Shown: in pieces, positions 22,479 to 58,452 of the stretch
Layout of the letters: every line of letters begins with the position of its first letter
Numbering within the stretch: position 1 is the stretch's first letter
Virus record (IMG/VR): IMGVR_UViG_3300022746_000001
Origin: a virus
Taxonomy: Duplodnaviria > Heunggongvirae > Uroviricota > Caudoviricetes
Reading direction: 5' to 3' (one strand)
Length of the DNA: 64,000 nt
Notes under the pieces: model-generated
What the model was told of the DNA's origin: nothing
What the model saw: the letters and a program-made list of their open reading frames with translations, nothing else
Database searches by the model: none
Position numbers and translations under genes: made by a program

Positions 22479-22835
22479 TTAGTCCGCTAAAGTTTCTGGC
22501 ACTTCAACTTCGACACCGAACGCCAAGAACACACGTTGAATCATCCAGCTTGCAATTAGCTTGGAACCATTTGAGAGCGTGTAGCCTATCGGGTTGAAAG
22601 GCTCGATTTGCATAGACTTGCAAAGCTGAAGCCAATTAGCTTCAACAATCGGCCCTGCGACAGACCAATCGTTTGCGTAGTCGGGGATGGGAAACGGTTG
22701 GTCGCCCATGAAAGCGTCTACCGTCTCAAGATAGTGGAGACCGTCTTCAGTGAGCGTTAAGCCCTCTGCTTTAGCCACAGCGTAGTTCAACGCTGCACCA
22801 GTCAGGCGTGAGGTCAATACCTTCTTCATTGTCAT
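22479..22835 (-). CDS. hypothetical protein
   Basis: AAAGGA RBS. Confidence 0.5.
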   Translation of the reverse strand: MTMKKVLTSRLTGAALNYAVAKAEGLTLTEDGLHYLETVDAFMGDQPFPIPDYANDWSVAGPIVEANWLQLCKSMQIEPFNPIGYTLSNGSKLIASWMIQRVFLAFGVEVEVPETLAD

Positions 22836-23374: not shown

Positions 23375-23570
23375 TGACTGCCTCCTTTTTAAATTCACGC
23401 AAGCGGTAGCCATCTTTAGGTTCGACGTGCCAGTAGTGAGCGCAACCGCCCTCTTCCACTGGCGCGGTCACGAAAAACGACTGACGGAACTCATTTGGTA
23501 TGGCGCGGTGGCGATAGCAGGTCTCTGCTTGCTCGCACCCTTTACCGTCGCACATGGATATATCTGGCAT
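23355..23570 (-). CDS. hypothetical Cys-containing protein
   Basis: AAAGGAG RBS. Confidence 0.45.
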   Translation of the reverse strand: MPDISMCDGKGCEQAETCYRHRAIPNEFRQSFFVTAPVEEGGCAHYWHVEPKDGYRLREFKKEAVNANYGS

Positions 23571-30583: not shown

Positions 30584-31423
30584 TTATGACTTTACCGTCA
30601 AGGTCGTGGGGAAAAGCGTAGCCTCGACGATCTTCCGGTACTGTTGCCAGCCCCTGAAGTTGCCAGACCATTGATCGGCTCCGATTGGAGACGCTTGATG
30701 CTCGATAGGCGACGCATGAAGCGGAACGCTACCGACGAGGCGATCGTAGAGAGCAATGTCCTTTTCGATCGTTGGATTCTCACCGTCATGAGTGAGGTAG
30801 GAGACACGAGCGCATCGTGCGGCAGAAGCCTTGAGTAAGGTCTCAATGTCCAATTGCTCTCGCTCTTGATCTTGGACGTAAGGCAGATGCCAAACACCAT
30901 GCTTGAGCGCTTTGGGCGTTGATTGCTCCATTGCGGTCTTCATCACAATGGCAAGCGCTTGAATCTCTGGCTGCGCATCAGGATGTGCGCGCAAGGCAAA
31001 GAAGTTATCCCACTCTGTAGCCGTCACAATCACGCTAATGAATTGAAACGGTTCCAAGATGCGGTTCGCAACTTGCTTGTGCAGTCCGTGCTTCTCCATG
31101 AACTCAGCAGTCGCGGCAGCTTCACGCGCAGCTTGTTGCCAAGCTCGCATCATGGTCTCAAGCTCTTGCCCCTGCATTTCTGCACTCGCCTGCATTCCTG
31201 GCTGATTCTTGCCCCAGTGAACTGGCATCGCAGGGTTAGTGCGAACCTGCTCAATCATCTTGGCAACAGGAATGGCGCGTGACGAGCTGGCGTTACGGCT
31301 AAACACCCGATGCGTCATGAACTCAGCATGGATGAAGCGCGGATAGCGCAACTGAAGTGTGGTCAGACGAACGCCACCAGGGGAAATGGAGTCTTCAATG
31401 ACTCGTGCGGAGATTCCACTCAT
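30584..31423 (-). CDS. thyX: flavin-dependent thymidylate synthase ThyX
   Basis: ThyX signature RHRVFSRNASSSR (RHRX7S). Confidence 0.85.
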   Translation of the reverse strand: MSGISARVIEDSISPGGVRLTTLQLRYPRFIHAEFMTHRVFSRNASSSRAIPVAKMIEQVRTNPAMPVHWGKNQPGMQASAEMQGQELETMMRAWQQAAREAAATAEFMEKHGLHKQVANRILEPFQFISVIVTATEWDNFFALRAHPDAQPEIQALAIVMKTAMEQSTPKALKHGVWHLPYVQDQEREQLDIETLLKASAARCARVSYLTHDGENPTIEKDIALYDRLVGSVPLHASPIEHQASPIGADQWSGNFRGWQQYRKIVEATLFPTTLTVKS

Positions 31424-34391: not shown

Positions 34392-36860
34392 TTAGGCTTT
34401 GTCTTCAGTGAAGTCGATTGGACAGCCACCTGCCCCGCAATCAACGTGTTCAAAGCCAATGTCTTCCTTGACCTCTTCGCTGTCCTTAATGGCGGCGACG
34501 ATCATTTCAAACTCGTGCTTTGTCACGGGTTGCTCAGGCTGGTATTCGTAGGCTGTGGTGTCAGCTTGTGGCATCACCGAGCAGCAGCGAATAGTGGACT
34601 GACCTTCGAACAGAGTGCGCTTGAACTCCTCAAACGACACAGTCTTAGGGTCGTACTTCAGCGTGTAAGACACTTGGTTGCCACGCTCTTCGAGAGGCGT
34701 CACACCGTCTTCTTCCACACCAGTGATCCAATACTTTTCCATCAAGCGCAGGAACTGGTATTGCTCTTCCGGTGTAGCTTCTGCGGCCGTCACGAGTTTG
34801 TCACCCATGCCCAACTTGCAGATTTCAGGGATGGTTGGGAAGCCAACGATGGTCGTGCCGCTGTAGGTCTTGAGCTTCTTCACTGGGTAGCCAAGTTCAC
34901 GGTACTGGTCAATCAATGGATCGTCATTACGGAACTGCACCCAACGCAGGTACTCACGCATTGAAGGCAAGTGAGCGCCTTCTGTCAGACCGAACAGCTT
35001 GGACGTTGTGCCGGCAGGCTTCATGGTCGTGTTGGTGTGAGGTACAGCGACGCCCAAAGCCTCTGAGTAGCTCTTGGCTTCGCTCTGTACGGCGCGCTTG
35101 AAGCGGCTCAGAGTCAGCCAGAAGTCCAGCGACTTAGCTTCGTCAACAATGTCCTTCCAACCATAGCCAAAACGTGCCCAGGCGTACTCGTGCAAGCCGG
35201 TCATGCCAACGCCGATACGGTTTGTGCGGCGCACTTCTTTACCGTACAGACTGTCCATTAGGTTGGTACGAATCAGGGCGCGTGTCGCGGTGCGGAAGGA
35301 GTCTTCAGCATCGTCGTCCCACTCCTCGTTCGTCACTTGATCCAAGCCTGTCGCAGAGCGTTCGCCAGCATGGTACGGAACCACGTCAGCAATCACGCAA
35401 TAGCCACCCAAAGCACCCAGAACGATTTCGCCACAGGGGTTGGTGATAACCTTATAGGGCGAATTGAGCCATGCTTTAGCCAGTGTTGCGGTCAGTTCGA
35501 GGGTTTCGGTATCGAGCTTGTAACGCTCCGACTCCGCGAAGTTACCATCCAGAAGCACTTCCGTACCCTCGTCGCTCCATGTCAATTTATCAACGCTGAT
35601 GATGCCTGGCTCGCCAGTTTGATCGTGGTAAGCAGCGTCACACAGGGCATTGAACACGGCGAAGGCATGCTCTTGCTCCGCATCTTGCATTGGGTCATGG
35701 CTGTGTACGCCACGCATGGCATTATCGACGTGACGCCAGAACTCAGAGTCCACAGTCACGCTATTGTTAGACGACCACAGGAAGCCACCGCGCTTGACTT
35801 GAACAAAGTCCAGCACGTTCTTGTCACGCCAAGTCTTTGTCGCCATACGAGCTGCGCGACGAGCGCCACCCACCAGCACACATTCGGCGATGTAGTGGTC
35901 AGCGTACATGGCGGCGCGCCAGGGAGCCATACCAGCGTCACGCAGTTTGCCGACATTACTCAGAGCAGTCATCATTGGGCCAGGGCCGGACGCAGGACGA
36001 TTCTGCATACCGCCGATCGGTGCGCCGCGAGGACGAACCTTGCTGAAGTCCAAAATCAAAACGGTGTCGCGCTTGTCACCACGGAAGGCGGCATACTCCA
36101 TCTTCTCGATAGCTTTCGCCCAACCTTCGCGGCTGTCTGGCACCTCGAAGATTTCCATTTCACGACCGGCGTACAGATGCTTGGCAGTACGTAAGTCCAA
36201 AGCGTTAATTTCGCCAGACTGACAATCCTTGTGCATCATGTCGATGGTGCAGACAGTCACAGGCAAGTTGTTCAAATCAGCCTTAATCATGGCGTTGTCA
36301 TAGCTGCGGCCGACACCCGAACCATTGAGCAAGAGATAGAAGGTCAGGAAGGTCGTGGCTGCTGTCGAACAGTTGGTGAAGACTTCCATGTTGCGAACCG
36401 CTTGGGTCTCGTCACCATGTTGCAGGTGGCGACCCGACATGAGAATGGACGCTTGGCGCAGGTGGTGGTGCATCTTCTCGTACTCAGCAGTGCGTTGGCG
36501 AGCCAGCTCCGCAAGTTGCGTACCTTCGATCTGAGGATGCAGTGTGGCGTTGCCGTAAGCGACACGAGCTGCAACGTCTGCCCAAGTCTCAACTTCAATG
36601 TGGCCTGTAACGGTCAACTCAATCTTGACAATCAGTTCATCGCCATAAGCAACGTGATAGCCCTGAATGACGATGTTGTTGGACTTGCACCACTCGTCTA
36701 CTTCATGGTCTAGCGCCATGTCATCGCGGCGCGGCAGCTCAATCACCTTCGTGTAGCTCTCCACCTGGCGTACTACTTTACGGTTAATTGTGCGATCCGC
36801 TACGGCGTCACCAATACCTTTGGCGTATTCCCGTGCGGGCGTGTTGATACTTTCGTGCAT
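34392..36860 (-). CDS. ribonucleotide reductase, large monomeric type (class II-like)
   Basis: active-site NPCGEI; 822 aa; C-terminal Cys pair CGAGGCPI. Confidence 0.8.
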   Translation of the reverse strand: MHESINTPAREYAKGIGDAVADRTINRKVVRQVESYTKVIELPRRDDMALDHEVDEWCKSNNIVIQGYHVAYGDELIVKIELTVTGHIEVETWADVAARVAYGNATLHPQIEGTQLAELARQRTAEYEKMHHHLRQASILMSGRHLQHGDETQAVRNMEVFTNCSTAATTFLTFYLLLNGSGVGRSYDNAMIKADLNNLPVTVCTIDMMHKDCQSGEINALDLRTAKHLYAGREMEIFEVPDSREGWAKAIEKMEYAAFRGDKRDTVLILDFSKVRPRGAPIGGMQNRPASGPGPMMTALSNVGKLRDAGMAPWRAAMYADHYIAECVLVGGARRAARMATKTWRDKNVLDFVQVKRGGFLWSSNNSVTVDSEFWRHVDNAMRGVHSHDPMQDAEQEHAFAVFNALCDAAYHDQTGEPGIISVDKLTWSDEGTEVLLDGNFAESERYKLDTETLELTATLAKAWLNSPYKVITNPCGEIVLGALGGYCVIADVVPYHAGERSATGLDQVTNEEWDDDAEDSFRTATRALIRTNLMDSLYGKEVRRTNRIGVGMTGLHEYAWARFGYGWKDIVDEAKSLDFWLTLSRFKRAVQSEAKSYSEALGVAVPHTNTTMKPAGTTSKLFGLTEGAHLPSMREYLRWVQFRNDDPLIDQYRELGYPVKKLKTYSGTTIVGFPTIPEICKLGMGDKLVTAAEATPEEQYQFLRLMEKYWITGVEEDGVTPLEERGNQVSYTLKYDPKTVSFEEFKRTLFEGQSTIRCCSVMPQADTTAYEYQPEQPVTKHEFEMIVAAIKDSEEVKEDIGFEHVDCGAGGCPIDFTEDKA

Positions 36861-43023: not shown

Positions 43024-44031
43024 TTACGTTGGCAAAAGTTTCAGCAGTTCCGAGTGCGTACCTTCTTTGGTGATCTTCTCTGCCAGGGCTTTCACGAAGT
43101 ATTGCTTACCGTCGATCCAAGTCACGCGCGGTTTGCTGTACGTAATCATCTTGTGGGCGATCAGGTACTCAAGCAGGCTGAACGTGGTATCAAACTGTGC
43201 AGCGCCAAGCTCGTCAAAGCTCATGCGAACCGAACACTCTTGGAATGGTTTGGTCATCTTGGACTTCACGCATTGGATAGAAATGTTCTGTCCCACGAAG
43301 GTCTTTTCGCCGTCTTGTTGCTCCATGATCTTTTGACGACCCAAAGCCAGACGTGCGGTTGCGTAGAACTCCATCGCTTTACCGCCTGGGGTGGTGCGAG
43401 GGTCGCCGTAGACAACGCCAGGCTTCAAACGCATTTGGTTCAGGTACAGGAACGTCGCGTTGTATTCTTCGCAGTGCTGCGCCATCGCTTTGAGTGTTGT
43501 CGAAGTCACGCGAGCCAAAGCCGTTGTGTCGTTCATGGTGTACTCGTCAATCTCCTTCTCAGCTTGCGACTTTGGCAACGCTGCGGCGATGGAGTCAAAC
43601 ACGAACAAGATGGGCGCTTCGTCTGGAATGGCTTTGGACTCACGAATGAGTTTGCAAGCCTTCGCAGCTTTGACGTTACCTTCTTCCCATGTCTTTGGTT
43701 TGAAGTACAGCCAGTGTGGGCGCTCAGACTTCAGTCCGAAACCTTCAGCGAGGCTCACGTCGAACGAGCGCTCCCAGTCGATGAAGCCGGCAACGCCACC
43801 CATTTGTTGAGCGCGAACCATCCACATCGTTGCCAGTGCGGTCTTACCTGTTGAGGATTCACCGAACATTTCAACCATGCGGCCGAACGGCAAGCCACCG
43901 TCATAGCGACCCGACATGATGTGGTTCAGCGGAGGGTAGCCAGTGTCGATGAAGTTTGTAACTTGTTGGCCGTCTGCATTGGCGCCCAACTCTTTGTCCA
44001 TTGCGGAAAGGAGGTCTGTTAAGGCTGACAT
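43024..44031 (-). CDS. RecA/UvsX-family recombinase
   Basis: N-terminal FIDTGYPPLN...GGLPFGRMVEMFGESSTGKTALA (RecA-like Walker A); 335 aa. Confidence 0.75.
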   Translation of the reverse strand: MSALTDLLSAMDKELGANADGQQVTNFIDTGYPPLNHIMSGRYDGGLPFGRMVEMFGESSTGKTALATMWMVRAQQMGGVAGFIDWERSFDVSLAEGFGLKSERPHWLYFKPKTWEEGNVKAAKACKLIRESKAIPDEAPILFVFDSIAAALPKSQAEKEIDEYTMNDTTALARVTSTTLKAMAQHCEEYNATFLYLNQMRLKPGVVYGDPRTTPGGKAMEFYATARLALGRQKIMEQQDGEKTFVGQNISIQCVKSKMTKPFQECSVRMSFDELGAAQFDTTFSLLEYLIAHKMITYSKPRVTWIDGKQYFVKALAEKITKEGTHSELLKLLPT

Positions 44032-46805: not shown

Positions 46806-49800
46806 TTAAGACAAAATCTCGGCGACTTTTCGGAATGCTTCATCCAAAATCAGTTGCTTGTCTGGGTCAAAGCCAATCTGCTGTGCGTTGAGGCCACAAA
46901 CAATGGTCGCGTCCAGCTTGGGGTCGTAGAACGCCTTACCAGCCACTTCTGCTGCCCCACCCTTCAGTCCTGGAACGAACTTCTTGATGGTTGACGAGCC
47001 AAGCGCCACGATGATCGGTGGCTTAATCAGCTCAATCTCACGGTCGATGTAAGCGGAACAGCCATTGATCTGCTCGTTGGTCAGGAACTTGTCTTGCTTC
47101 TTAGCTTTGACCAGTGTGGTGTAATAGCCTTCAGCTACGTTCAATCCTGCATTCTTGATTGCCAGCTTGACGTACTGAGCGGCGTCACCTTCCAGCAGCT
47201 TGTCTTTCTTCTCTTCTTGCCATGTTGGGCAGTCCGAGACAACCATGAAGCGGACGTTCGTCTTGCAGCGTACTGTTGGGTGAGGTTCGCCAGCTAAAGT
47301 GCAGCCTTCGCATTTCTTGTAATCCTGAACCACCTCGATGATCTTGGTGCGCAAAAAGCCAGCACTGAGGTCAGCCGATCGGTCAGCCTTCACCGTGTCG
47401 ATAATCAGTCCTGGCAGCAGTTCCATCTGCGCTTTGCGGCGACTGAAATGCAGGGGCGACAGCTCAGTCTTGTCGATGCTGGCGTAAGCGCCAATCAGCT
47501 TCAAGTTCTCCACCACCCGAGCGTTGACCTTTGAGCCAGGCTGCGAGGCGGCAAGCTCGAACTCTTGAGGCGTATCGAAACGACCCTTGACTGGGGCTGC
47601 CTCATCCATCTCCCACACGTCCTCGACCGTCCCATCGCGCTTCTTCTTGGTCTTGACGACGCCCCAGCTCCGGTTGCGTTCACGCAGCTCCACAATGCGT
47701 AGCGCGGTATTCTCGGAGACGCCCTTCACGGCAGAGAACGGTGCCAAGATCGTGCTGTTGTTGGGGATGGTATACCGATGTGTGGACAGGTTAATGTCTG
47801 GCGGCATGACTTCAATCTTGTACTCACGCGCGTCCGTCACCAGCCCAGGCAGCTTGTCTTCGGCCACGATCGACATACAGGCAGCGAAGTATTCAGCGGG
47901 GTAGCGGCAGCGAACCCACATCGTCCAGTAGCTGATGATGGAGTATTCAACGGCGTGCGAACGGTTGAAACCGTAGCCAGCGAACGCTTCGATCTTGTCA
48001 AAAATGCCACCAGCGGTGCGCTCGTCCATACCGACGTTCTTCAGACAACCGGCATTCCACTGCTCACGCATTTCAGCCATCTTGTCTTTGTCTTTCTTGC
48101 CCATCGCTTTACGCAAGTGGTCAGCTTCAGCTCGTGTGAAGCCTGCAAGATCAACGGCAACCTGCATGACCTGTTCCTGATAGACGATAACGCCATAGGT
48201 CTGACGCAGCGCTGGCTCCATACTTGGATGGTCGTAGTATGGGGAGCGAATACCTTGCTTAATGGCAACGTAGTCATCCATCAGACCGGAGTCCATTGGG
48301 CCTGGACGGTACAGCGCGGTTGCGGCAGTAATGTCTTCGAAGGTCAATGTGCCACCGACAGCCAAGTCGCGCAGCAGCTTCTTCATGCCTGGCGATTCGA
48401 ACTGAAACACGCCGGTAGTGTCGCCACGACCGAATGATTCCATAATGTCAGCTTCTTCAAGAGGCAGATCGAGGTAGTCAATCTCAACGCCATGACGGTC
48501 ATGGATGTATTGACGCGCAATCTCCAGTACGTCGAGCGTGGACAGACCCAAAATATCCATCTTGACCAAGCCCCAGTCTTCAACCACACGCTTGTCCCAA
48601 GACACTGTGGGCGTCGTATCGTCACCGCGCGTCTCCACAACGGCACGATTGACTAACGGCTCACCAGCGACCACTACGCCGGCAGCGTGTCGTCCAAAGG
48701 CTCGCATAGCACCCTCTAAGTGCAGCGCATGCTTCCAAATCCCTGGGCGCTCGTCTTTGAACTTGTCGATTTCAGGAACAGCTTTCGCTGCTTCTGACAG
48801 CGTGAACGATTGACCATGCTCTTTTGGAACGAGCTTAGTAGCGGTTAGCTCAATGCCATTGAGACCATATACGCGACCAGTGTCACGCAGCGCGGAGGCG
48901 CTCGCTAACGTCGAATAGTTTGAGATTCCTGCGACACGATCTGTACCGTATTTGGCTGACAGGTATTCGATAACCATGTGACGCTTGGAAGACATGAAGT
49001 CCAAGTCAGCGTCTGGCAAGTCAAGACGTTCAGGGTTAATGAAACGCTCGAACAGGAGGTTAAATCGAATCGGGTCAACGTCAGTGATGCCAATTAGGTA
49101 AGCGACCAATGAGCCGCCAACCGAACCGCGACCTGGCCCCACGATGATGCCGTTGTTCTTAGCCCAGACCACCAAGTCTTCCACGAGTAAGAAGTAGCCA
49201 GCGAAGCCCATCTTTTTCAGCACACCCAACTCGTATTGCAGGCGCTCTTGGTAGACCTTTATCTCCGTGCTGTCTGGCTTGTGACCGAGAACTTCGCGAC
49301 CAAAGCGGCGCTTCCATCCTTCGAGACACTTCTTACCGAGCGCCATGAACTCGTTGTCTGCCATCTTGGGCAGAGAGACGGGCAACTTTGAGAAGGTGTA
49401 GGCACATTCATTGACCAGTTCTTCGGCATTCTTTAAGCCCTCAACCCACAGGTTTGGAGCCGACACACCATCGAACGTGGCAATGCGCTTTGATGCGCCC
49501 TTGACGCGATCAACGATGTGCTTGGGTTCGTGAATGGAGAAGTCCTGCACGTATTGAATGGGACGGTACGACACATCCATCTTGCTGCTTGATGTGATAG
49601 CCGCCAGTACCTCAAGACTTTCGGCACAGTTATCGTCACGGTAGAAGATGGGGTATGTGACAAGTGGCAGACCGATGCCAGGCTGGTCATCGAGCAACAG
49701 CATGGCTTTTGCGTTCAGGGTATCGAACAGCGGCGTATTGATTGGCGTTAGCTCGATGTAGGTCTTGAACTTGTCAGCCAGCTTGCGAACGATCTCTGCG

Positions 49801-50261
49801 TGGTTTGCCATGTGAAAGACGTTATACATATCGCCAGTGCTGATCGACACGCCCTCAAGCTCAAGCACGTCCTCTAAGCCGACACGGGCGTGATAGTAGA
49901 AGTAGTCTTTGGAGTAACCCTTTGACAGCAGCTTAATGAGCGAGTGAATGCCAGCGTCATTCTGGACGTAGACCTTCAGCGCGTAACTGGGATTAGGCTT
50001 CTCTACTTCGCCCGAAGCCTTTGATGGTTTGCGGTAGGTTGGGTCTTGATAGACGCGAAGACGGCAGCCGATGATAGGCTTGATGCCTGCTTTCTTGCAG
50101 CGGTTGGTAAAGTCAACCATGCCATGCAGGGACATAGTGTCTACCAAAGCCACAGATTCGTAACCTTTCTCTTTAGCCTCAGAGACAAGGTGTTCAATCT
50201 GTAGCATGGACTCGCCAATACTAAAGTCGCTTCTGGCAGACAATGCGTGATTCAAATACAT
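46806..50261 (-). CDS. dnaE: DNA polymerase III alpha subunit (DnaE-type) with C-terminal degenerate family-4 UDG-like domain
   Basis: PHP domain N-terminus; GIIVGPGRGSVGGSLVAYLIGITDVDPIRFNLLFERFINPER; C-terminal about 190 aa aligns to family-4 UDG (CEGC, FMVVSDCPT, IVALGSS) with catalytic motifs altered. Confidence 0.85.
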   Translation of the reverse strand: MYLNHALSARSDFSIGESMLQIEHLVSEAKEKGYESVALVDTMSLHGMVDFTNRCKKAGIKPIIGCRLRVYQDPTYRKPSKASGEVEKPNPSYALKVYVQNDAGIHSLIKLLSKGYSKDYFYYHARVGLEDVLELEGVSISTGDMYNVFHMANHAEIVRKLADKFKTYIELTPINTPLFDTLNAKAMLLLDDQPGIGLPLVTYPIFYRDDNCAESLEVLAAITSSSKMDVSYRPIQYVQDFSIHEPKHIVDRVKGASKRIATFDGVSAPNLWVEGLKNAEELVNECAYTFSKLPVSLPKMADNEFMALGKKCLEGWKRRFGREVLGHKPDSTEIKVYQERLQYELGVLKKMGFAGYFLLVEDLVVWAKNNGIIVGPGRGSVGGSLVAYLIGITDVDPIRFNLLFERFINPERLDLPDADLDFMSSKRHMVIEYLSAKYGTDRVAGISNYSTLASASALRDTGRVYGLNGIELTATKLVPKEHGQSFTLSEAAKAVPEIDKFKDERPGIWKHALHLEGAMRAFGRHAAGVVVAGEPLVNRAVVETRGDDTTPTVSWDKRVVEDWGLVKMDILGLSTLDVLEIARQYIHDRHGVEIDYLDLPLEEADIMESFGRGDTTGVFQFESPGMKKLLRDLAVGGTLTFEDITAATALYRPGPMDSGLMDDYVAIKQGIRSPYYDHPSMEPALRQTYGVIVYQEQVMQVAVDLAGFTRAEADHLRKAMGKKDKDKMAEMREQWNAGCLKNVGMDERTAGGIFDKIEAFAGYGFNRSHAVEYSIISYWTMWVRCRYPAEYFAACMSIVAEDKLPGLVTDAREYKIEVMPPDINLSTHRYTIPNNSTILAPFSAVKGVSENTALRIVELRERNRSWGVVKTKKKRDGTVEDVWEMDEAAPVKGRFDTPQEFELAASQPGSKVNARVVENLKLIGAYASIDKTELSPLHFSRRKAQMELLPGLIIDTVKADRSADLSAGFLRTKIIEVVQDYKKCEGCTLAGEPHPTVRCKTNVRFMVVSDCPTWQEEKKDKLLEGDAAQYVKLAIKNAGLNVAEGYYTTLVKAKKQDKFLTNEQINGCSAYIDREIELIKPPIIVALGSSTIKKFVPGLKGGAAEVAGKAFYDPKLDATIVCGLNAQQIGFDPDKQLILDEAFRKVAEILS

Positions 50262-50989: not shown

Positions 50990-51643
50990 TTAGAAATGAT
51001 TTTCCATTGTGGTGTTCTCCAACTTACGCAGCTCGGCTAATGCACTGCGAACTTGCGCCTCTGTGACACCGCCCAACATCACGATGAATTGCCCTACATA
51101 GCGTGGCGATACATGGTTCATGAAGCGGCGCTCATAACCGAGACTTTTGGCGTACTGAATGTGCGCTTCGGCTTTTGCTAACTCTTCCAAGAACTCCTTC
51201 GGTGGCTCAATGACCCACTCCATAATCAAGAACGCCAGAGGTGAAAGTTGTTCACGAATCTGAGCCACGAACTCGCTACAGGCGTAGATTGCTTCAGGTG
51301 TCGCGTTGTCCTTCATCAGCACTTCTTCGAGATTGAAGTCTTCGCCGTTGGACTTGTTGTTCATCTCCTCGATGCTGACAACGCCATAGCGAAGACGCTC
51401 GTCAATCATCTTTTGCGCCCAAGAGTTAATCTTGTTGAAGGCAGCCATGTAGTAGTAAGTCGTGAATCGGTTGCCCAAACTCGCGTCGAACCCCTCGTAT
51501 GCCTTCAGGAAGACGAGAGACATTTCTTGGAACACATCGTCATAGTCCAAACCAATGCCTGCCGCCTGAAGTCGAGCGTAGCCCTTCTTCGAGACGGCGT
51601 GGACAAGACCTTTGTTCTCCTTGTAGAACTGGTCTACGTTCAT
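50990..51643 (-). CDS. sigma-70 family (ECF-like) RNA polymerase sigma factor
   Basis: region 2 DDVFQEMSLVFLKAYEGFDASLGNRFTTYYYMAAFNKI; C-terminal HTH VMLGGVTEAQVRSAL. Confidence 0.65.
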   Translation of the reverse strand: MNVDQFYKENKGLVHAVSKKGYARLQAAGIGLDYDDVFQEMSLVFLKAYEGFDASLGNRFTTYYYMAAFNKINSWAQKMIDERLRYGVVSIEEMNNKSNGEDFNLEEVLMKDNATPEAIYACSEFVAQIREQLSPLAFLIMEWVIEPPKEFLEELAKAEAHIQYAKSLGYERRFMNHVSPRYVGQFIVMLGGVTEAQVRSALAELRKLENTTMENHF

Positions 51644-51645
51644 GA

Positions 51646-52836
51646 TTAGCTTCCGAAGATGCGTTGAGCCAAGCCGTCTACAACTTCGCGGTCGATCTTG
51701 GACAACTTGTTGATGAACGACAGAGTCAAGCCCTGACGGAACGAACCGCGCTTGACGCCAATCTTGGCTGCGTAGATCAAAGTACGAGGCGAAATCACAT
51801 CGCTGATCTTTGCGCCGTCATACGCATCACGGACGAGACCTGCGAAGTCCACCAGCTTGTCGGCATCTTCTTTGGTCAAGCCAACTTGATTCTGGAGAAT
51901 CTGCGACTCGGAAGCCTTCTTCATGTACTGCTTGTGGATCACCATGCCGAAGCGGTCATAGTTCGCAGAGTTCTGAAGGTTTGTGCCTTGATACAGACCC
52001 GTCTCGTCGCCCGAACCGTTGGTGTTGCCAGTAGCGCAGAAGCGGAAGTTCGGGTGAGGCTTGATAAGACGATTCTCAGCATCGGCTTCTTTAATCATCA
52101 GTGACTTACCTTCGAGGACAGCCTGATAGACCGATAAGACAGAAGGCAACGCGAAGTCGTATTCGTCAGCGACATACATCCAACCATTTTGCATAGCGAG
52201 TGGAAGTGGGCCAAGTTCGAAGACGGTTTGACCGCCCTTCACCGTCCACTGCCCAACGATGTGTGATTCTTCCGTGTTGACTGTGTGCTGGACGCGAATC
52301 GTGGGTCGGTTAGTACGCGCGCCGATTTGTTCATACAGCTCAGTCTTGCCAGAACCTTTGTGACCCCACACGTAAGACGGAATGTTCAACTCAAGTGCCA
52401 GGATGACGTTTTTCAATTCGTCAATGTCGTACACGTAGTTGTCCGAAGGTGTCGGAACCATGTCGCTGAACTCGCCAGCGGCAAGTACGGAAATTGGAAT
52501 GGCTTCGCCCTTAGAACTCAATGCAGACTTGAGTTTGCCGAGATTGAAGGTTTCGTGAAATGCTTTTTTCATCACACCATTTCGGGGAGCAAGAGCGGCC
52601 ACATTCGTGCCAGCCATCTCCACTTTGGTGGTTGCTGCCGCTGCGGGTGCTGCGGTAGGATTTGTCGCGGCATGTTCCGCGATCTTCTTCTGCGCCAGTT
52701 GAGACAGCAGAGGTGCGTCTGGATAATCCATCGCATACTGCTCAACAGTCATTTCTGGGTGTGCATCCTTCAAGTGCAACTTGATGGCGTGAACATGCGC
52801 TCCACAGATGGCACATGCGATCTTTTCGTCTGACAT
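51646..52836 (-). CDS. cobS: CobS-like AAA+ ATPase (MoxR family)
   Basis: Walker A VWGHKGSGKTE; paired with downstream vWA protein as in phage CobS/CobT pairs. Confidence 0.7.
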   Translation of the reverse strand: MSDEKIACAICGAHVHAIKLHLKDAHPEMTVEQYAMDYPDAPLLSQLAQKKIAEHAATNPTAAPAAAATTKVEMAGTNVAALAPRNGVMKKAFHETFNLGKLKSALSSKGEAIPISVLAAGEFSDMVPTPSDNYVYDIDELKNVILALELNIPSYVWGHKGSGKTELYEQIGARTNRPTIRVQHTVNTEESHIVGQWTVKGGQTVFELGPLPLAMQNGWMYVADEYDFALPSVLSVYQAVLEGKSLMIKEADAENRLIKPHPNFRFCATGNTNGSGDETGLYQGTNLQNSANYDRFGMVIHKQYMKKASESQILQNQVGLTKEDADKLVDFAGLVRDAYDGAKISDVISPRTLIYAAKIGVKRGSFRQGLTLSFINKLSKIDREVVDGLAQRIFGS

Positions 52837-52953: not shown

Positions 52954-55089
52954 TTACGCTGCAAGCAAAAGCTGGCGCAACTCTTTAATCACAACGCTTG
53001 GCAACTGCTCCACGTTGTTCAACACAAGACTCTTTGGATAGAACTCGCGAACGGCCTCCGATTGAATGCCGATGCCGATGATCTTTACGCCTGAGTTGGC
53101 AATGTCACGCACCTTCTCGCGCAAGTGGCGACGCAGGTCGGCAGAGTTGCCGGCAGCCGCTGGATAACCGTCCGACAGCACCAGCATGATCTTGCCCTCT
53201 TCGCGACGCGCCATTAGACGACGAGCGGCCACCTCGATAGATTCGCCATCGACGTTACTGCGAAGGATGTTTGTGTTGGGAAGCCAACCGAAGCGCTCCT
53301 TCACGTCTGTAGTCATGCGTTCCTCGTAACCCTTGAGAATCGGCATGTAGATGCCTTCCATACGAGAGAAGCCACGACCCATCTTGCTCTGCTGCTCACG
53401 CATATCCTTCTGAGCGCCGCCAATGTCCTTCGTGGTGAAACAGATTACTTCATTCTTAATGCTCAAACGCTCCAACACGGCTGCCAGCGCATACGCAGCC
53501 TGACAAGCGGTGTGAACCTTCTCACCAGCCATCGAGCCAGAGGCGTCAACGACGAGTTCGACTGCCACATCCTTGCTGGTTGATTCCTGCTTGCGGCTAA
53601 AGACACGGTTATCGTTCACTGCCAGGCGAGACAGGTTTGGTGCGTGGAGACGACCGGAGCGGTGTCCGTGTGATCGGGTGGCGAGAGAACGTGCAGCGAT
53701 GGCGCGCTCAAGGTCTTTCTGCAATGGCGCGACCATGTGTTCCGTCTTCTCTATCAGCTTCTTGGTCATGGCTGCGTTGTAGCCGGAGCCGATTGGTAGC
53801 TTCTCCACAACGTCATAATCTTTCGTGAAGATCAGGTAATCGGCATTCTCCGCAACCGCGCTGGTGGCGTCGCTGATGACTTTGCTCATAGCTTCGTCGT
53901 AGCCGTTAGCACTCTCCTTGTCGAGCGCTTCCCATACTGGCGCAGAGTCGCCAAGCTCAACATCTTCTTCGTCTGAGGCGGTCGCACTTGGGGACGATTC
54001 GTCATCTACAGGGTCGGGTTCAGAAGGCTCCTCTTCCTCTTGCTCTGCGATCTCAGGCTCTGGCTCCGATTCGTCTTCTGATTCTTCAGGTGCTGGCTCT
54101 GGCTCTGATTCGTCTTCAGATTCTTTTTCTTCTGGCTCTTTCTCAGGTTCAGACTTCTCAGGCTTGGACTCTTTTTCTTTCTCGTCTTCTTTCTCGCCAG
54201 GCGCCTCTTCTTCTTTTTCTTCTTTCTCTTTTTCGCCCTTGCCCTTGCCTTTACCCTTTGAAGGAGTCTTTTCTTCTTCGCTTTTTTCTTCTGGCTCTTT
54301 CTCAGGTTTGGTCTTGCCGCTGCCAGAAGACTTGTCTTTTTTGCCAGAGGTTGTCTTGGTGCCGATACCGCCCGACTTGCTAGAACCACCCTTCTCGCTC
54401 TTCTCCTCACCCTTGTCGCCACCTGACGAGCCTTCGCTCATGCGCTTACCAATCTCGGCAGCCAGCTCAAAACATTCTTCGGTAGAGGCGGCAGCTTCGA
54501 TCTTCGGGGCCAAGTCTTTAATGCGTTCATACACAGGGGCGACCGTTGTCCAGTGGTCTTTCATGAACTCTTGGAAGACCATCTGACCCGACATAGCGCG
54601 AATCATTGGAACCATTAGCGATTCGATAACGCCGTTCACGTCACCGGCAGCAGCTTTCTCTTGCAAGCGTGGCTTGACGAACTTGTCCAGGTAGAACTGT
54701 CCAGTAACAGACAGGTTGTGCGCAGAGCCTTGAAAGCGCTTTGCCATGCACTTCTCGATGCGAGGGTCTTCAAGTGCATTAAGCAAGTAACCGATGCGCT
54801 TACCTTGCGCCATCGCCTTGCTCATGACGGTGAACTCGGTAAAGAGGATGTGAGCAACCTCGTGATCCAAGAAGCCTTGAATGGCGTTGCACAGGTCTTC
54901 ACCAGCGTTGTCTGGCAGATATGGCAAGTTGACAACCAGCGGCACACCGCGATGGTCGGCACGAACGTATGCGCTAACACCCTGTTGGGTGACTTTGATG
55001 CCCTTACCGGAGAGCATCTGTGTGATCTTCACGACGGACTCGCGAAGGATAAAAACTCGATCATTCTTCATTGTCGCTCCTTTAGTCAT
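52954..55089 (-). CDS. cobT: CobT-like von Willebrand factor A domain protein with long acidic/Lys-rich low-complexity region
   Basis: vWA MIDAS DASGSMAG; long low-complexity stretch KGKGKGEKEKEEKEEEAPGEKEDEKEKESKPEKSEPEKEPEEKESEDESEPEPAPEE. Confidence 0.7.
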   Translation of the reverse strand: MTKGATMKNDRVFILRESVVKITQMLSGKGIKVTQQGVSAYVRADHRGVPLVVNLPYLPDNAGEDLCNAIQGFLDHEVAHILFTEFTVMSKAMAQGKRIGYLLNALEDPRIEKCMAKRFQGSAHNLSVTGQFYLDKFVKPRLQEKAAAGDVNGVIESLMVPMIRAMSGQMVFQEFMKDHWTTVAPVYERIKDLAPKIEAAASTEECFELAAEIGKRMSEGSSGGDKGEEKSEKGGSSKSGGIGTKTTSGKKDKSSGSGKTKPEKEPEEKSEEEKTPSKGKGKGKGEKEKEEKEEEAPGEKEDEKEKESKPEKSEPEKEPEEKESEDESEPEPAPEESEDESEPEPEIAEQEEEEPSEPDPVDDESSPSATASDEEDVELGDSAPVWEALDKESANGYDEAMSKVISDATSAVAENADYLIFTKDYDVVEKLPIGSGYNAAMTKKLIEKTEHMVAPLQKDLERAIAARSLATRSHGHRSGRLHAPNLSRLAVNDNRVFSRKQESTSKDVAVELVVDASGSMAGEKVHTACQAAYALAAVLERLSIKNEVICFTTKDIGGAQKDMREQQSKMGRGFSRMEGIYMPILKGYEERMTTDVKERFGWLPNTNILRSNVDGESIEVAARRLMARREEGKIMLVLSDGYPAAAGNSADLRRHLREKVRDIANSGVKIIGIGIQSEAVREFYPKSLVLNNVEQLPSVVIKELRQLLLAA

Positions 55090-56122: not shown

Positions 56123-56380
56123 ATGATGATGCGTTTTATAAAGATTGCCGAAGTCGAACAGATTTCAGGATTCAAGAAATCCAAGATTTATTCCATGATC
56201 CAACAGGGCGAGTTTCCTCAACCCGTCAAGATCGGTCGCTCGTCTAATTGGCTACTCTCGGAGCTTGAGGGATGGATAGCCTTGCGCGCCATGCAGCGAA
56301 CCACTCCCACGGTTGAATGGAGTAGTTACAGTTCCCAGAGCGCAGGTCATCCAGATAGTCAGCCCACCCCTGCACCATGA
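56123..56380 (+). CDS. alpA: AlpA-family excisionase-like DNA-binding protein
   Basis: MRFIKIAEVEQISGFKKSKIYSMIQQGEFPQPVKIGRSSNWLLSELEGWI matches AlpA pattern; 3' end overlaps integrase by about 137 nt. Confidence 0.65.
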   Translation: MMMRFIKIAEVEQISGFKKSKIYSMIQQGEFPQPVKIGRSSNWLLSELEGWIALRAMQRTTPTVEWSSYSSQSAGHPDSQPTPAP

Positions 56381-57518
56381 TGCAGCGCTCTTGCCAATAC
56401 TCAGCGCGGTTGTAGGCGCGTTCAACCTTACTCTCCAGCTCGTGCGCTAATTGCTTTTCGACAACTTTGGAATCGAAGCCGCCCTCTTCCAACAAGGTCT
56501 TGGCAGTAGTTCTAAAGCCGTGTGTGGAGTGAATTTCTTTGTAGCCCAGGCGATGCAAGTTCTTCATGAAGGTGGTGTCGCCATAGACGCCACCTCGCGG
56601 ACTTGGGAATACAAGACCTTCCGAGCCTGTGACTGTTTTCAGGTTTTCAAGCATTTCAACTGCTTGCTTGGACAGAGGGCACAGAAAGTCTTTTCTTGCT
56701 TTCATCTGATGCGCCGGTAATGTCCAAGTCGCATTCGGAAGATCAAACTGTTCCCATGATGCGTATCGTAAGTTTTGCGGACGAACGAAGACCAACGCAT
56801 TCAGGCGCAACGCAATCACAGGCAATGTCTGCTCGTCGTTGTCCAGCTTTCGCAATAACTCCCCAAGTTGTTCAGGGACAATGAGTGCAGGAAAGTGACG
56901 CTCTTTATGCTGCGCAAATCCATCGCGCTTTACTCTTGCAATTGGATTGCCTGGAAGTTCGCCGCGATCATAAGCGGCTTCAAATGCTCGATTTAGGAGT
57001 GATCGTACTCGGGTTAGCTTGTAATTCGCACCGCGCTTTTCTACTCTTTCAAGCAAGCTCCGAATGTCATCAGGTGTGATACCGATCGCCTCGCGTTTAC
57101 CGATGAACGGTAGAACGTCTCGCTTCATGGCAATCTCATAGTCGTCGTAGTGAGTGTCGCTCCAATCTTTCTTGTTGCGCTCCATCCACCCGTACAAAAG
57201 TTCCGAGACCGTTTGGTGCTTGGTCACGATCCTCTCGACACGACGAGCCTCGACAGGGTCTTTCCCCAACTGTACTTTTTCCCTAGCTTGCTGTGCCAGG
57301 GTACGAGCCGTACTTAGCGAGACTGCGGGATAGGTTCCGATGGAATAGGTCTTACGTTTTCCATACAGGGAGTAGTTCAAAGTCCAGCTTGCAGAGCCGT
57401 TGGGTCGAACGACTAGGTACAGGTTTTCGCCGTCCGCTATCTTCGTTACTCCACCCTTGTCTCTTGCTTGCTTGAGCCTTGATTCTAAAGACTTTTGGGA
57501 CAACTCATGTAACGCCAT
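56244..57518 (-). CDS. int: tyrosine integrase (P4-type, N-terminal arm-binding domain)
   Basis: GGAGG RBS before ATG 57518; catalytic-region HGFRTT...HEL...RAYNRAEY. Confidence 0.8.
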   Translation of the reverse strand: MALHELSQKSLESRLKQARDKGGVTKIADGENLYLVVRPNGSASWTLNYSLYGKRKTYSIGTYPAVSLSTARTLAQQAREKVQLGKDPVEARRVERIVTKHQTVSELLYGWMERNKKDWSDTHYDDYEIAMKRDVLPFIGKREAIGITPDDIRSLLERVEKRGANYKLTRVRSLLNRAFEAAYDRGELPGNPIARVKRDGFAQHKERHFPALIVPEQLGELLRKLDNDEQTLPVIALRLNALVFVRPQNLRYASWEQFDLPNATWTLPAHQMKARKDFLCPLSKQAVEMLENLKTVTGSEGLVFPSPRGGVYGDTTFMKNLHRLGYKEIHSTHGFRTTAKTLLEEGGFDSKVVEKQLAHELESKVERAYNRAEYWQERCIMVQGWADYLDDLRSGNCNYSIQPWEWFAAWRARLSIPQAPRVAN

Positions 57519-57519
57519 G

Positions 57520-57830
57520 TGGTAACGCCTCCAAACAAATGTGGTAACGGTCTTGAGTGTAGTGACCGATTTCTTAGTTACCACCGGCGTTACCACTTTA
57601 TTTTCTGGAAGTCAGGGGATTGGCATGGAGAGTGGTGGAAAAGAAAAACCCCCAGAACCTAGTGGTGGTGGGGGTTTCGCTTTTGCTGAACACTCTGGCG
57701 GAGGTCAGCGGACTACCAGTTTCAAGCAGGTGCCAAATATTTGGCGGAGACGGAGGGATTCGTACTTCTAGTCTCTATGAGGCTTTCGGGAGGATTCCAA
57801 ATTCGTTACCACCGCCGTTACCACTTGAGT
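57520..57830. repeat. candidate att region with direct GTTACCAC arm-type repeats
   Basis: GTTACCACCGGCGTTACCACTT and GTTACCACCGCCGTTACCACTTGAGTG plus further GTTACCAC/GTGGTAAC copies beside integrase start. Confidence 0.5.
57640..57676 (-). terminator. rho-independent terminator
   Basis: CCCCCA...TGGGGG stem then TTTTTCTTTTCC on minus strand. Confidence 0.55.
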
Positions 57831-58452
57831 GAGCCGGCGAATAAACCGTCCGAATCAACTCATCTACCACCGTGTCAATGTTGTCCTCATTGAACCACAA
57901 CAGGTTTACATCTGCCAGAGAGCGGCATTGCTCAAACCAGTGCGTCTCTTCGCCCATCATAACACTGAGGCGCTTCGAGTAGGTATCCAAGACTTTCTCA
58001 GCCCCTTCTGGATTTCCGATGCCGCCCACGATGAAGTCCTGGATCATGCGCTCCAAGAATCGTTTGGCAATTACGCTGTACGGATTGTTCACAAAAACGG
58101 AGACGATTCGAATCCCCTTTTGCAATCCATATTCGCGAACTTGGCGAAGACCTTCAGGCTCAACAACGACGACAACAGGCTTGCTTTTCGCAAACACTCG
58201 TTCCACTTCGCAAGCACTGACGCCGTACAGGTTTCCATTAAATTCAACCTGCTCAATGTATGCACCTTCGGCTGCATTCTTTTTAAATGCTTCAGGCGAC
58301 ACGAAGTAATATGATTGCCCATCTACTTCGCCTTTTCGCATGGGTCGAGTGGTCGTGGAAATTACGTTCTCAAAGCCTGCTTGTTTTAGCCTTGCTTCAA
58401 GTGTTGATTTGCCAGAGCATGATGGGCCGGTGAGGGTTAGGATTGTTTTCAT
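57775..58452 (-). CDS. guanylate kinase-like nucleoside monophosphate kinase
   Basis: LTGPSCSGKSTL, TTRPMRKGEVDGQSYYFVS. Confidence 0.7.
   Translation of the reverse strand: MKTILTLTGPSCSGKSTLEARLKQAGFENVISTTTRPMRKGEVDGQSYYFVSPEAFKKNAAEGAYIEQVEFNGNLYGVSACEVERVFAKSKPVVVVVEPEGLRQVREYGLQKGIRIVSVFVNNPYSVIAKRFLERMIQDFIVGGIGNPEGAEKVLDTYSKRLSVMMGEETHWFEQCRSLADVNLLWFNEDNIDTVVDELIRTVYSPAHSSGNGGGNEFGILPKAS

What the first reader, a model, noticed from the sequence alone, without database searches (positions are those of the whole stretch)
46806..47420. DnaE polymerase fused to a C-terminal degenerate uracil-DNA-glycosylase-like domain
The last roughly 190 residues of the Pol III alpha-type protein align by eye to family-4 UDG: CEGC (Fe-S-type Cys pair), FMVVSDCPT in place of the catalytic GEGPG motif, LLEGDAAQYVKLAIKNAGL in place of PFVGKAGQLLNRILEAAGI, YYTTLVKAK in place of ITNIVKC, ELIKPPIIVALGSS in place of ELIAPQIIVPLGA, with the C-terminal HPS motif lost. 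The fold appears retained but the catalytic residues changed, suggesting a DNA-binding or uracil-sensing accessory domain rather than an active glycosylase, fused to the replicative polymerase.
Basis: partly seen in the sequence, partly recalled or inferred. Interest (0 to 1): 0.6.

Follow-up and report, generated by a model that had tools for sequence, protein, structure and literature searches.

The report
Phage DnaE polymerase with UDG-like tail
The phage's Pol III alpha-type replicative polymerase really does end in a uracil-DNA-glycosylase-fold domain whose uracil-contact residues have been replaced, but this domain layout was described in 2014 and occurs in hundreds of phages and phage-plasmids, so this is a new member of a known kind whose function is still untested.

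Summary

The uracil-pocket residues are replaced: GEGPG→SDCPT, F54→L, N80→T, H155→N. In 196 homologous DnaE-linked domains (22-79% identity) the replacement Asp and Asn/Ser/Thr are themselves conserved. Three of the four Fe-S cysteines survive. A clade-specific His accompanies them in 130 of 131 cases, which suggests a 3Cys+His metal site.

The architecture is not new. Timinskas et al. (2014) described DnaE with OB and CTD replaced by a UDG domain. It occurs in RHEph10-, nickie- and SSU5-like phages and in 901 plasmid records.

Best reading: a non-uracil-excising DNA- or template-handling module that substitutes for the OB fold and CTD. This is inferred, not shown. Interest is low to moderate.

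The parts
46806..50261 (-). dnaE ORF, 1151 aa plus stop: C-family (Pol III alpha-type) DNA polymerase with a UDG-like C-terminal domain
   Evidence: TIGR00594 scores 701 bits, above its 434 cut-off. It falls below the equivalog cut-off of cellular DnaE1 (750 against 1002).
49767..50234 (-). PHP domain (aa 10-165). The N-terminal HxH motif is degenerate: NHALSARS against E. coli HLRVHS.
   Evidence: Pfam PF02811, E 5e-21; alignment with E. coli DnaE
48546..49340 (-). Polymerase core, palm and thumb (aa 308-572), with catalytic D417 and D419. The third catalytic Asp, D569, lies in this span.
   Evidence: Pfam PF07733, E 2e-78. All three Asp align with E. coli D401/D403/D555 and are invariant in 14 aligned sequences.
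48036..48539 (-). Fingers domain (aa 575-742). Around aa 718-745 is the site where the closest relatives carry a homing-endonuclease ORF that splits the gene. The gene is uninterrupted here.
   Evidence: Pfam PF17657, E 6e-53
47472..47819 (-). (HhH)2 region of the beta-binding domain (aa 815 to about 930). It contains a window-specific insertion of about 29 aa (aa about 866-894).
   Evidence: Pfam HHH_6 at aa 815-865. Alignment with E. coli DnaE 820-897 extends the homology to about aa 930.
47379..47450 (-). Conserved linker motif HFSRRKAQMELLPGLIIDTVKADR (aa 938-961). Conservation: R941 98%, Q945 88%, L948 86%, M/L949 87%, P950 86%, R961 91%.
   Evidence: pLDDT is low (about 55) in the model. 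The role is unknown. QxEL[LM] resembles a clamp-binding motif, but this is a lead recalled from memory, not a test.
46809..47360 (-). UDG-fold domain (aa 968-1151). It derives from the family-4/UdgX branch and occupies the position of the OB fold and tau-binding CTD of cellular DnaE.
47280..47312 (-). C984-E-G-C987 ... H994: the first two Fe-S cysteines plus a clade-specific His that co-varies with the Cys triad
   Evidence: The pattern Cys1-Cys2-His-x-Cys4 is present in 130 of 196 sequences. All four are absent together in 40.
47223..47237 (-). Motif A equivalent, S1009-D-C-P-T1013, in place of GE(A/G)PG
47058..47060 (-). C1068, the fourth Fe-S cysteine (retained). The third, C85 of Tth UDGa, is A1053 here.
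46878..46895 (-). Motif B equivalent, G1123-L-N-A-Q-Q1128, in place of xxHPS(S/A). H155 has become N1125.

Best explanation
The gene encodes the phage's replicative C-family polymerase. [quoted passage not shown]

That domain keeps the UDG alpha/beta fold and, in this lineage, a metal site (3 Cys + His). It has lost the residues that recognise and excise uracil. It most likely no longer removes uracil. Instead it probably works as a built-in DNA-handling module, gripping the template strand or the duplex next to the polymerase. That would take over the ssDNA-binding and anchoring role of the missing OB fold and CTD, and possibly add processivity.

Shown here by computation:
- the domain layout
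- the fold
- the residue replacements and their conservation
- the Cys/His co-variation
- the wide distribution of the fusion

Inferred:
- loss of uracil excision
- DNA binding
- the position of the domain at the template entry
- the contribution to processivity
For: - Layout: homology to DnaE ends at about aa 930. The UDG fold starts at about aa 968, which leaves no room for an OB fold.
- Pocket residues: E41→D1010, G42→C1011, F54→L1023, N80→T1049, H155→N1125. In Tth UDGa, H155S costs more than three orders of magnitude in k2/Km, and E41Q, N80A and F54A cost 17- to 900-fold (PMC5387724).
- Conservation: across 196 DnaE-linked domains of 22-79% identity, His at the H155 position survives in only 2 sequences (1%) and Asn at N80 in about 2%. 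Asp at E41 (93%), T79, K84 and the LG and G-x-N-P elements stay conserved. This points to purifying selection for a non-UDG role.
- Precedents: UDG domains sit at the template entry of phage PolA (phiLo, YerA41) and of the mpox replicase (bioRxiv 10.1101/2025.03.26.645540). N4-like PolA carries a family-4 UDG domain with unconserved catalytic residues, proposed as a processivity module (PMC10201439; PMC3201878).
- No DnaN homolog was found among the window's ORFs.
- From established knowledge: the OB domain of E. coli Pol III alpha binds the ssDNA template, and the CTD binds tau.
Against: - Nothing here measures DNA binding, processivity or glycosylase activity.
- The invariant Asp in motif A and the Asn in motif B could support catalysis on another substrate. 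From memory, family-2 MUG also has Asn at the motif-B position.
- The position of the domain relative to the polymerase active site was not modelled.
- A conserved Q-x-E-L-[LM] motif in the linker could be a beta-clamp-binding motif. If so, processivity would come from the host clamp and not from the UDG-like domain.
- Only 64 kb of a genome of about 110 kb was searched for a clamp, and only with one E. coli query and with Pfam on part of the ORFs.
Confidence: 0.5

Rival explanations
1. The domain is still a DNA glycosylase, with changed specificity or low turnover. It would use the conserved Asp1010, Asp/Glu1057 and Asn1125, and act on template or nascent DNA at the fork. This would resemble the active UDG domains of SP15-like and SPO1-like PolA.
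For: - Asp at the E41 position is present in 93% of sequences, and Asn/Ser/Thr at the H155 position in 95%.
- The N89 position, which positions the water in Tth UDGa, is mostly Asp or Glu.
- UDG families 2, 3, 5 and 6 use varied motif A and B residues and remain active (from memory; also PMC5387724).
- Active polymerase-fused UDGs exist.
Against: - Every residue shown to matter for uracil binding or leaving-group stabilisation in family 4 is changed at once.
- The N80 position is variable (T/S/A/G). That is not expected for a base-specific pocket.
- The aromatic stacking residue F54 is L/M/G/A.
- No base-modification genes were seen nearby. ThyX is present, which suggests ordinary T-DNA.
- NCBIfam scores lie far below the family cut-offs.
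Confidence: 0.12
2. The domain is a non-excising read-ahead sensor. It would flip out and bind uracil or a damaged base in the template ahead of the active site and stall synthesis, like the uracil pocket of archaeal family-B polymerases or the tight uracil binding of UdgX.
For: - The UDG fold is a base-flipping scaffold.
- The domain replaces the template-binding OB fold.
- The UDG domain of phiLo PolA scans the template about 5 nt ahead of the active site.
Against: - The uracil-specific contacts N80, F54 and H155 are gone.
- NCBIfam aligns only positions 43-175 of the 231-position UdgX model to aa 972-1094, at 38.9 bits on the whole protein and 42.2 on the C-terminal piece against a cut-off of 190. 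Whether a KRRIH-type loop is present was not inspected directly.
Confidence: 0.13
3. The domain is mainly a protein-protein adaptor. It would replace the tau-binding CTD and tether the polymerase to the phage helicase, primase, gp32-like SSB or the CobS/CobT-like pair encoded next to it.
For: - The tau-binding CTD is missing.
- The gene sits in a conserved block with CobT/CobS-like, sigma-like, gp32-like, FEN and RecA genes in the window, in nickie and in metagenomic relatives.
- From memory, archaeal family-4 UDGs bind PCNA, and vaccinia D4 binds A20.
Against: - There is no direct evidence.
- The conserved positions cluster on the former active-site and DNA-binding elements (motif A, T79/K84, LG, G-x-N-P), not on a new surface. 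Without coordinates this is only a sequence-level argument.
Confidence: 0.2
4. The domain is a vestigial remnant with no function.
For: The catalytic residues are lost.
Against: - The domain is kept full-length at the extreme C-terminus in about 200 sequence clusters down to 22% identity.
- It has many invariant positions.
- It models with confidence.
- It is retained even where the gene is split by a homing endonuclease.
Confidence: 0.03

Closest known systems
DnaE variant with OB and CTD replaced by an archaeal-type UDG domain (Timinskas et al. 2014, NAR, PMC3919608). Examples are the dnaE of SSU5, pHCM2 and pMT1-type phage-plasmids and of Rhizobium phage RHEph10 and Pseudomonas phage nickie.
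   Same: - Same layout: PHP, Pol3, (HhH)2, UDG.
- Homologous along the whole length: 35-44% identity at 97-100% coverage.
- The C-terminal domain alone matches at 23-42% identity.
- Same gene neighbourhood.
- The same replacements at E41, N80 and H155.
   Different: - This gene is at most 44% identical to any deposited phage DnaE, and no DNA-level match exists.
- It belongs to a betaproteobacterial/Acinetobacter-related subclade that keeps the CxxC...H...C site. SSU5, RHEph10 and ANB28 have lost that site.
- Unlike its closest relatives, it is not split by a homing endonuclease.
Family-4 uracil-DNA glycosylases (Tth UDGa 1ui0, TM0511 1l9g/1vk2, S. tokodaii 4zbx) and UdgX
   Same: - Shared core elements: CxxC, T-x-x-V-K, ALG, G-x-x-P.
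- 20-24% identity.
   Different: - Motif A is SDCPT, not GE(A/G)PG.
- Motif B is N-A-Q, not HPS.
- F54→L, N80→T, third Fe-S Cys→Ala.
- Scores are far below the curated family cut-offs.
- The domain is fused to a polymerase.
[quoted passage not shown] N4-like enzymes have unconserved catalytic residues. SPO1-like and SP15-like enzymes (phiLo, YerA41) are active and read ahead on the template.
   Same: - A replicative phage polymerase carries a family-4-type UDG domain.
- The N4-like group likewise lacks the catalytic residues and is proposed to use the domain for processivity (PMC10201439).
   Different: - A different, unrelated polymerase family (C, not A).
- The domain is at the C-terminus instead of the N-terminus.
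- It replaces an OB fold rather than being added.
- It is an independent fusion event.
Poxvirus D4/E4 UDG as a subunit of the polymerase holoenzyme (with A20/A22)
   Different: D4 is a family-1-like, catalytically active, separate subunit bound through A20. Here the domain is covalently fused, family-4-derived and has altered pocket residues.

Membership tests
Family-4 UDG (UDGa) | UDG alpha/beta fold | tested here: met
   [not shown]
Family-4 UDG (UDGa) | Motif A GE(A/G)PG | tested here: not met
   SDCPT at aa 1009-1013. Across 196 homologs the pattern is x-D-[CASG]-P-[TSN].
Family-4 UDG (UDGa) | Motif B HPS with the catalytic His (H155 of Tth UDGa) | tested here: not met
   N1125-A-Q. His is kept in only 2 of 196 homologs.
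Family-4 UDG (UDGa) | Uracil contacts F54 (stacking) and N80 (N3/O4 hydrogen bonds) | tested here: not met
   L1023 and T1049. The clade has L/M/G/A and T/S/A/G at these positions. Roles of the residues come from PMC5387724.
Family-4 UDG (UDGa) | Four-Cys [4Fe-4S] site | tested here: inconclusive
   C984, C987 and C1068 are kept. The third Cys is A1053. H994 accompanies the Cys triad in 130 of 131 cases. The identity of the metal is not testable here.
Family-4 UDG (UDGa) | Score above the curated family cut-offs (NF040953, TIGR00758) | tested here: not met
   For NF040953: 47.5 bits on the whole protein and 50.9 on the C-terminal piece, against a cut-off of 250. For TIGR00758: 42.4 and 46.1 bits, against 125.3. 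Pfam superfamily model PF03167 is passed: 28.6 against 24.3.
Family-4 UDG (UDGa) | Uracil excision activity | not testable with these tools
   Needs a glycosylase assay.
C-family DNA polymerase (DnaE type) | PHP, Pol3 core, fingers and (HhH)2, with the three catalytic Asp | tested here: met
   (TIGR00594 scores 701 against 434). D417, D419 and D569 align with E. coli D401, D403 and D555.
Cellular replicative DnaE1 (equivalog PRK05673) | OB fold and tau-binding C-terminal domain; score above the equivalog cut-off | tested here: not met
   The match ends at model position 850 of 1146. It scores 749.9 bits against a cut-off of 1002. No OB or CTD is detected.
DnaE-UDG architecture of Timinskas et al. 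2014 | OB and CTD replaced by a PF03167 domain directly after (HhH)2 | tested here: met
   There is full-length homology to SSU5 dnaE, and the C-terminal domain matches inside the annotated dnaE of Yersinia pestis and Salmonella plasmids.
UdgX (covalent uracil-DNA binding) | GEQPG motif A, KRRIH loop with H109, HPS motif B | tested here: not met
   Motifs A and B differ as above. TIGR03914 scores 38.9 bits on the whole protein and 42.2 on the C-terminal piece, against a cut-off of 190. The R-loop was not inspected separately.

The most novel reading that the evidence does not exclude
The DnaE-fused UDG-like domain is a repurposed base-flipping 'reader'. It would have a conserved Asp/Asn pocket and a 3Cys+His metal site, and would scan the template strand ahead of a C-family polymerase without cutting it. 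That would make it a bacterial-virus counterpart of the archaeal PolB uracil read-ahead pocket and a non-catalytic sister of the phiLo/YerA41 PolA-UDG system. Alternatively, it could be a glycosylase with a new specificity coupled to a Pol III-type replicase.
Probability: 0.15. Interest if true: 0.6.

Novelty: new member of a known kind. Interest (0 to 1): 0.3.

Why it matters
Two unrelated phage polymerase families (A and C), and poxvirus family-B replicases, have each recruited a UDG-fold module. Working out what the altered version does on a Pol III-type enzyme would show how a replicase can manage without the OB fold, the tau link and perhaps the clamp loader.

The same polymerase is carried by hundreds of ~100-120 kb plasmid records, most of them typed non-mobilizable, in Klebsiella, E. 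coli, Acinetobacter, Salmonella and Yersinia pestis, so the function matters for how those elements replicate.

For this window the practical outcome is modest. The annotation 'DNA polymerase III alpha subunit' should be read as 'DnaE with a C-terminal UDG-like domain whose uracil-contact residues are replaced'. The fusion itself is not a discovery.

Tried and rejected
- Megablast of the gene against phage genomes found no match.
- Single-sequence AlphaFold of aa 900-1151 failed (pLDDT 38). The job was redone with a 64-sequence alignment.
- The afdb50 fold library was not available.
- Group I intron as the cause of the split dnaE in relatives: an Rfam E-value scan of L006 7000-8400 found nothing, so intron versus free-standing endonuclease is unresolved.
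- Linker motif QMELL as the homolog of the E. coli internal clamp-binding motif QADMF(920): MAFFT aligns the motif with E. coli 897-915 (RAALMNSLGDALKAADQ) instead. This is not settled, and it is kept only as a lead.
- C1011 as the fourth metal ligand: it is present in only 84 of 131 triad-bearing sequences and in 14 of 65 without the triad. H994 is present in 130 of 131, so His is favoured.
- Phage-encoded sliding clamp: phmmer with E. coli DnaN against all stop-to-stop ORFs of 60 aa or more in the window gave no hit at E<=10. No DNA_pol3_beta hit appeared among about 53 ORFs scanned with Pfam. Absence from the whole genome cannot be claimed.
- Thymidine-hypermodification context, as in SPO1 and SP15: only ThyX, a class II RNR and a guanylate-kinase-like gene were seen. 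Nothing suggests hmU-DNA.
- Literature searches for later work on the DnaE-UDG fusion found nothing beyond the 2014 paper in the open library.
Full report
**1. What is at the coordinates**

The interval 46806-47420 is the 3' end of a single minus-strand ORF, 46806-50261, encoding 1151 aa.

Pfam places four DnaE domains in it: PHP (aa 10-165), the Pol III alpha core (308-572), fingers (575-742) and HHH_6 (815-865). It then places PF03167 UDG at aa 999-1100. On the C-terminal 252 aa alone this scores E 1.7e-6 and 28.6 bits, above the gathering cut-off of 24.3.

NCBIfam matches DnaE models only up to about aa 866. It also hits Arch_udg (1e-13), UDG_fam4 (4e-12) and UdgX (7e-11) in the tail, all far below their curated cut-offs.

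phmmer against PDB sequences returns four distinct family-4 UDG sequences as the only significant hits. These are S. tokodaii 4zbx (2.8e-10), T. maritima TM0511 in two constructs, 1vk2 and 1l9g (5e-10), and T. thermophilus 1ui0 (4e-7).

The polymerase itself looks functional. D417, D419 and D569 align with the E. coli catalytic D401, D403 and D555. Alignment with E. coli DnaE carries the homology through the second HhH to about aa 930.

After that comes a 24-aa linker motif that is strongly conserved in the family (aa 938-961). The UDG-like fold follows at about aa 968-1151. There is no room for, and no trace of, the OB fold and tau-binding domain of cellular DnaE.

**2. Fold**

A single-sequence AlphaFold run failed (pLDDT 38). 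With a 64-sequence alignment of relatives (A4) the model of aa 938-1151 reached pLDDT 91.2 and pTM 0.87.

Foldseek against PDB ranks family-4 UDGs first (E 1e-12 to 4e-11, TM 0.77-0.85, rmsd 2.2-2.9 A). UdgX, family 5, TDG and MUG follow.

- 24.3 to TM0511 (rmsd 2.1 A over 182 residues)
- 22.7 to UdgX
- 19.0 to family-5 UDGb
- 14.8 to the UDG domain of the phiLo family-A polymerase (9qhs)
- 13.7 to TDG and 13.5 to MUG
- 9.1 to vaccinia D4

**3. Active-site and metal-site residues**

Xia et al. define the uracil pocket of Tth UDGa as E41, G42, E47, F54, N80 and H155, with N89 positioning the water. In their measurements H155S costs more than three orders of magnitude, and E41Q, N80A and F54A cost 17- to 900-fold (PMC5387724).

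I mapped these residues by profile alignment:

| Tth UDGa | Window DnaE |
|---|---|
| G40-E41-G42-P43-G44 | S1009-D1010-C1011-P1012-T1013 |
| E47 | E1016 |
| F54 | L1023 |
| N80 | T1049 |
| C85 | A1053 |
| N89 | D1057 |
| H155-P | N1125-A |

I collected 216 domain-bearing proteins from two searches plus four phage sequences. I aligned them to a profile of the clade and tabulated these columns. The 196 strong matches are 22-79% identical to the window. Among them:
- The E41 position is Asp in about 93%.
- The H155 position is Asn, Ser or Thr in about 95%, and His in only 2 sequences.
- The N80 position is T, S, A or G, with Asn in about 2%.
- The F54 position is mostly L, M, G or A.
- T79, K84, the LG of the ALG strand and the G-x-[NST]-P element are nearly invariant.

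So the uracil-specific chemistry is gone throughout the family. The site has not drifted, though. It has been re-fixed in a different, conserved state.

'Degenerate' is also the wrong word for a domain under this much constraint.

Of the four Fe-S cysteines of family 4, three are kept (C984, C987, C1068) and the third is Ala. A His seven residues after the CxxC (H994; Thr in the two family-4 references) accompanies the Cys triad in 130 of 131 sequences. In 40 sequences Cys1, Cys2, Cys4 and H994 are all absent, and when Cys1 is missing the Cys4 position is most often aromatic. SSU5, RHEph10 and ANB28 are in this group.

This co-variation suggests a 3Cys+His metal site in the window's lineage. 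That is an inference. I could not read coordinates from the model, and the sequences are phylogenetically related, so the counts are not independent events.

**4. Distribution and prior knowledge**

tblastn against deposited phages shows full-length homologs at 97-100% coverage in these groups:
- Rhizobium phages of the RHEph10 group (43-44% identity)
- Stenotrophomonas phages ANB28 and BUCTxx99
- Pseudomonas phage nickie and relatives (about 41%)
- Xanthomonas JGB6 (a weaker match: 95% coverage in 4 joined pieces)
- SSU5-like phage-plasmids of Salmonella, Klebsiella and Escherichia (about 35%)

The C-terminal domain alone finds the same phages, plus family-A polymerases with UDG domains. Most of the other roughly 1,400 phage records with a DnaE homolog lack the domain.

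In the plasmid collection, 901 records carry the domain. They include Klebsiella 266, Escherichia 214, Acinetobacter 154, Enterobacter 90, Salmonella 49 and Yersinia 49. The listed records are about 100-120 kb, and 775 of the 901 are typed non-mobilizable. They are annotated as dnaE or 'uracil-DNA glycosylase family protein'.

An exhaustive profile search gives 110 clusters (at 50% identity) with E<=1e-30. Many are 1077-1172 aa with the domain at the very C-terminus. The closest genomic relatives are in Betaproteobacteria (Paraburkholderia, Massilia, Castellaniella) and Acinetobacter.

Gene order around dnaE matches nickie and the metagenomic relatives. The block contains primase, ligase, CobT- and CobS-like genes, a sigma-like gene, dnaE, gp32-like SSB, FEN, RecA, and Mre11 and Rad50.

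The architecture has been published. Timinskas et al. [quoted passage not shown] PF03167' (PMC3919608). The GenBank note on RHEph10 gp048 already lists 'uracil-DNA glycosylase-like'.

In the open literature I could search, I found no analysis of the catalytic residues of this DnaE-linked domain, and no experiment on it.

**5. How it most likely works**

Known precedents fall into two classes.

The first class is active UDG modules coupled to replicases:
- SP15-like PolA of phiLo and YerA41 excises dU from the template about five nucleotides ahead of the active site. Its UDG domain sits above the fingers at the template entry (bioRxiv 10.1101/2025.03.26.645540).
- Poxvirus D4/E4 is both a UDG and part of the processivity factor.

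The second class is inactive modules. N4-like PolA carries a family-4 UDG domain with unconserved catalytic residues, proposed to act 'merely as a processivity module' (PMC10201439). The same proposal was made earlier for SPO1 and T5 (PMC3201878).

The window's domain belongs with the second class by residue content. Its placement is informative. It replaces exactly the part of DnaE that, in E. coli, binds the single-stranded template (OB fold) and tau (CTD). That role assignment comes from established knowledge.

My best explanation (confidence about 0.5) is a non-uracil-excising DNA- or template-handling module that substitutes for the OB fold and CTD.

Rivals:
- a glycosylase with altered specificity (0.12)
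- a non-excising lesion or uracil sensor (0.13)
- a protein-interaction adaptor replacing the tau link (0.2)
- a vestige (0.03)

The conserved Asp and Asn keep the catalytic and sensor readings alive. The simultaneous loss of H155, N80 and F54, and the variability at the N80 position, weigh against anything uracil-specific.

The conserved linker motif R-x-[KR]-D-Q-x-E-L-[ML]-P-G-L looks like a clamp-binding peptide. If it is one, processivity would come from the host clamp and the UDG-like domain would be left with the template-grip or adaptor role. The alignment to E. coli is ambiguous on this point.

**6. Verdict**

The finding is a new, fairly divergent member of an already described class of phage and phage-plasmid polymerases. 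The modest additions from this work are:
- the family-wide residue census, showing a re-fixed rather than decayed pocket
- the 3Cys+His co-variation
- the conserved linker motif
- the observation that the nearest relatives have the gene split by a homing endonuclease, whereas this one is intact

Interest is 0.3.

Noticed in passing
window 48036-48110 (about aa 718-742 of DnaE); L006 7297-8016; L008/L009 7771-8011: In the closest relatives dnaE is split into three ORFs: a 785-aa N part, an HNH_3/NUMOD4 homing-endonuclease ORF (177 aa, or a 63-aa remnant) and a 421-423-aa C part (HHH_6 + UDG). These relatives are a 110-kb metagenome contig and Acinetobacter baumannii contigs of 98 and 101 kb. 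The N part has an extra 45-aa tail and the C part an extra N-terminal extension. About half of all collected domain-bearing proteins are such C-halves of 360-460 aa. Other relatives carry inteins instead (P0087, P0147). The window's gene is uninterrupted. An Rfam scan found no group I intron, so intron versus true gene split is unresolved.
   Followed up: partly
window 47379-47450 (-), aa 938-961: There is a strongly conserved linker motif, HFSRRKAQMELLPGLIIDTVKADR, between (HhH)2 and the UDG-like domain (R941 98%, Q945 88%, L948 86%, P950 86%, R961 91% of 181 sequences). The core Q-x-E-L-[LM] resembles beta-clamp-binding peptides. MAFFT aligns it with E. coli DnaE 897-915, not with QADMF(920).
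   Followed up: partly
window 47280-47312 and 47058-47060 (-): The third Fe-S cysteine of family-4 UDG is replaced by Ala. A clade-specific His (H994) co-occurs with the remaining Cys triad in 130 of 131 sequences. Lineages that lost the cysteines (SSU5, RHEph10, ANB28) also lack the His and most often have an aromatic residue at the Cys4 position. This suggests a switch to a 3Cys+His metal site.
   Followed up: partly
window 56244-57596 (-): A tyrosine integrase (Arm-DNA-bind_3, Phage_int_M and Phage_integrase domains) sits inside the replication module, between the CobT-like gene and a guanylate-kinase-like gene. Phage nickie has no integrase annotated in the replication block I fetched (record 41996-69382). 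It may mark a temperate lifestyle or an inserted element.
   Followed up: no
window 22832-23413 (-): This is an RNase_T/DnaQ-family exonuclease (E 1e-26) and a candidate trans-acting proofreader. The PHP domain of the DnaE has a degenerate N-terminal HxH motif (NHALSARS).
   Followed up: no
window 50990-51643, 51646-52836, 52954-55089 (-): A Sigma70_r2-like protein and a CobS-like AAA_5 / CobT-like VWA pair lie immediately upstream of dnaE. The arrangement is conserved in nickie, SSU5 and the metagenomic relatives. Their role in replication is unknown.
   Followed up: no
L008/L009 12550-14748: The RecA of the Acinetobacter baumannii relatives carries an intein (RecA_N, Intein_splicing, RecA_N). 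The window's RecA (43024-44031) does not.
   Followed up: no
window 30584-31423 (-), 34392-36860 (-), 57775-58452 (-): Nucleotide-metabolism genes are present: ThyX, a class II (B12-type) ribonucleotide reductase and a guanylate-kinase-like protein. A Pyr_excise (pyrimidine-dimer glycosylase) hit occurs somewhere among the ORFs of alignment A3; I did not locate which ORF. No dUMP-hydroxymethylase-type or other base-modification genes were seen.
   Followed up: no
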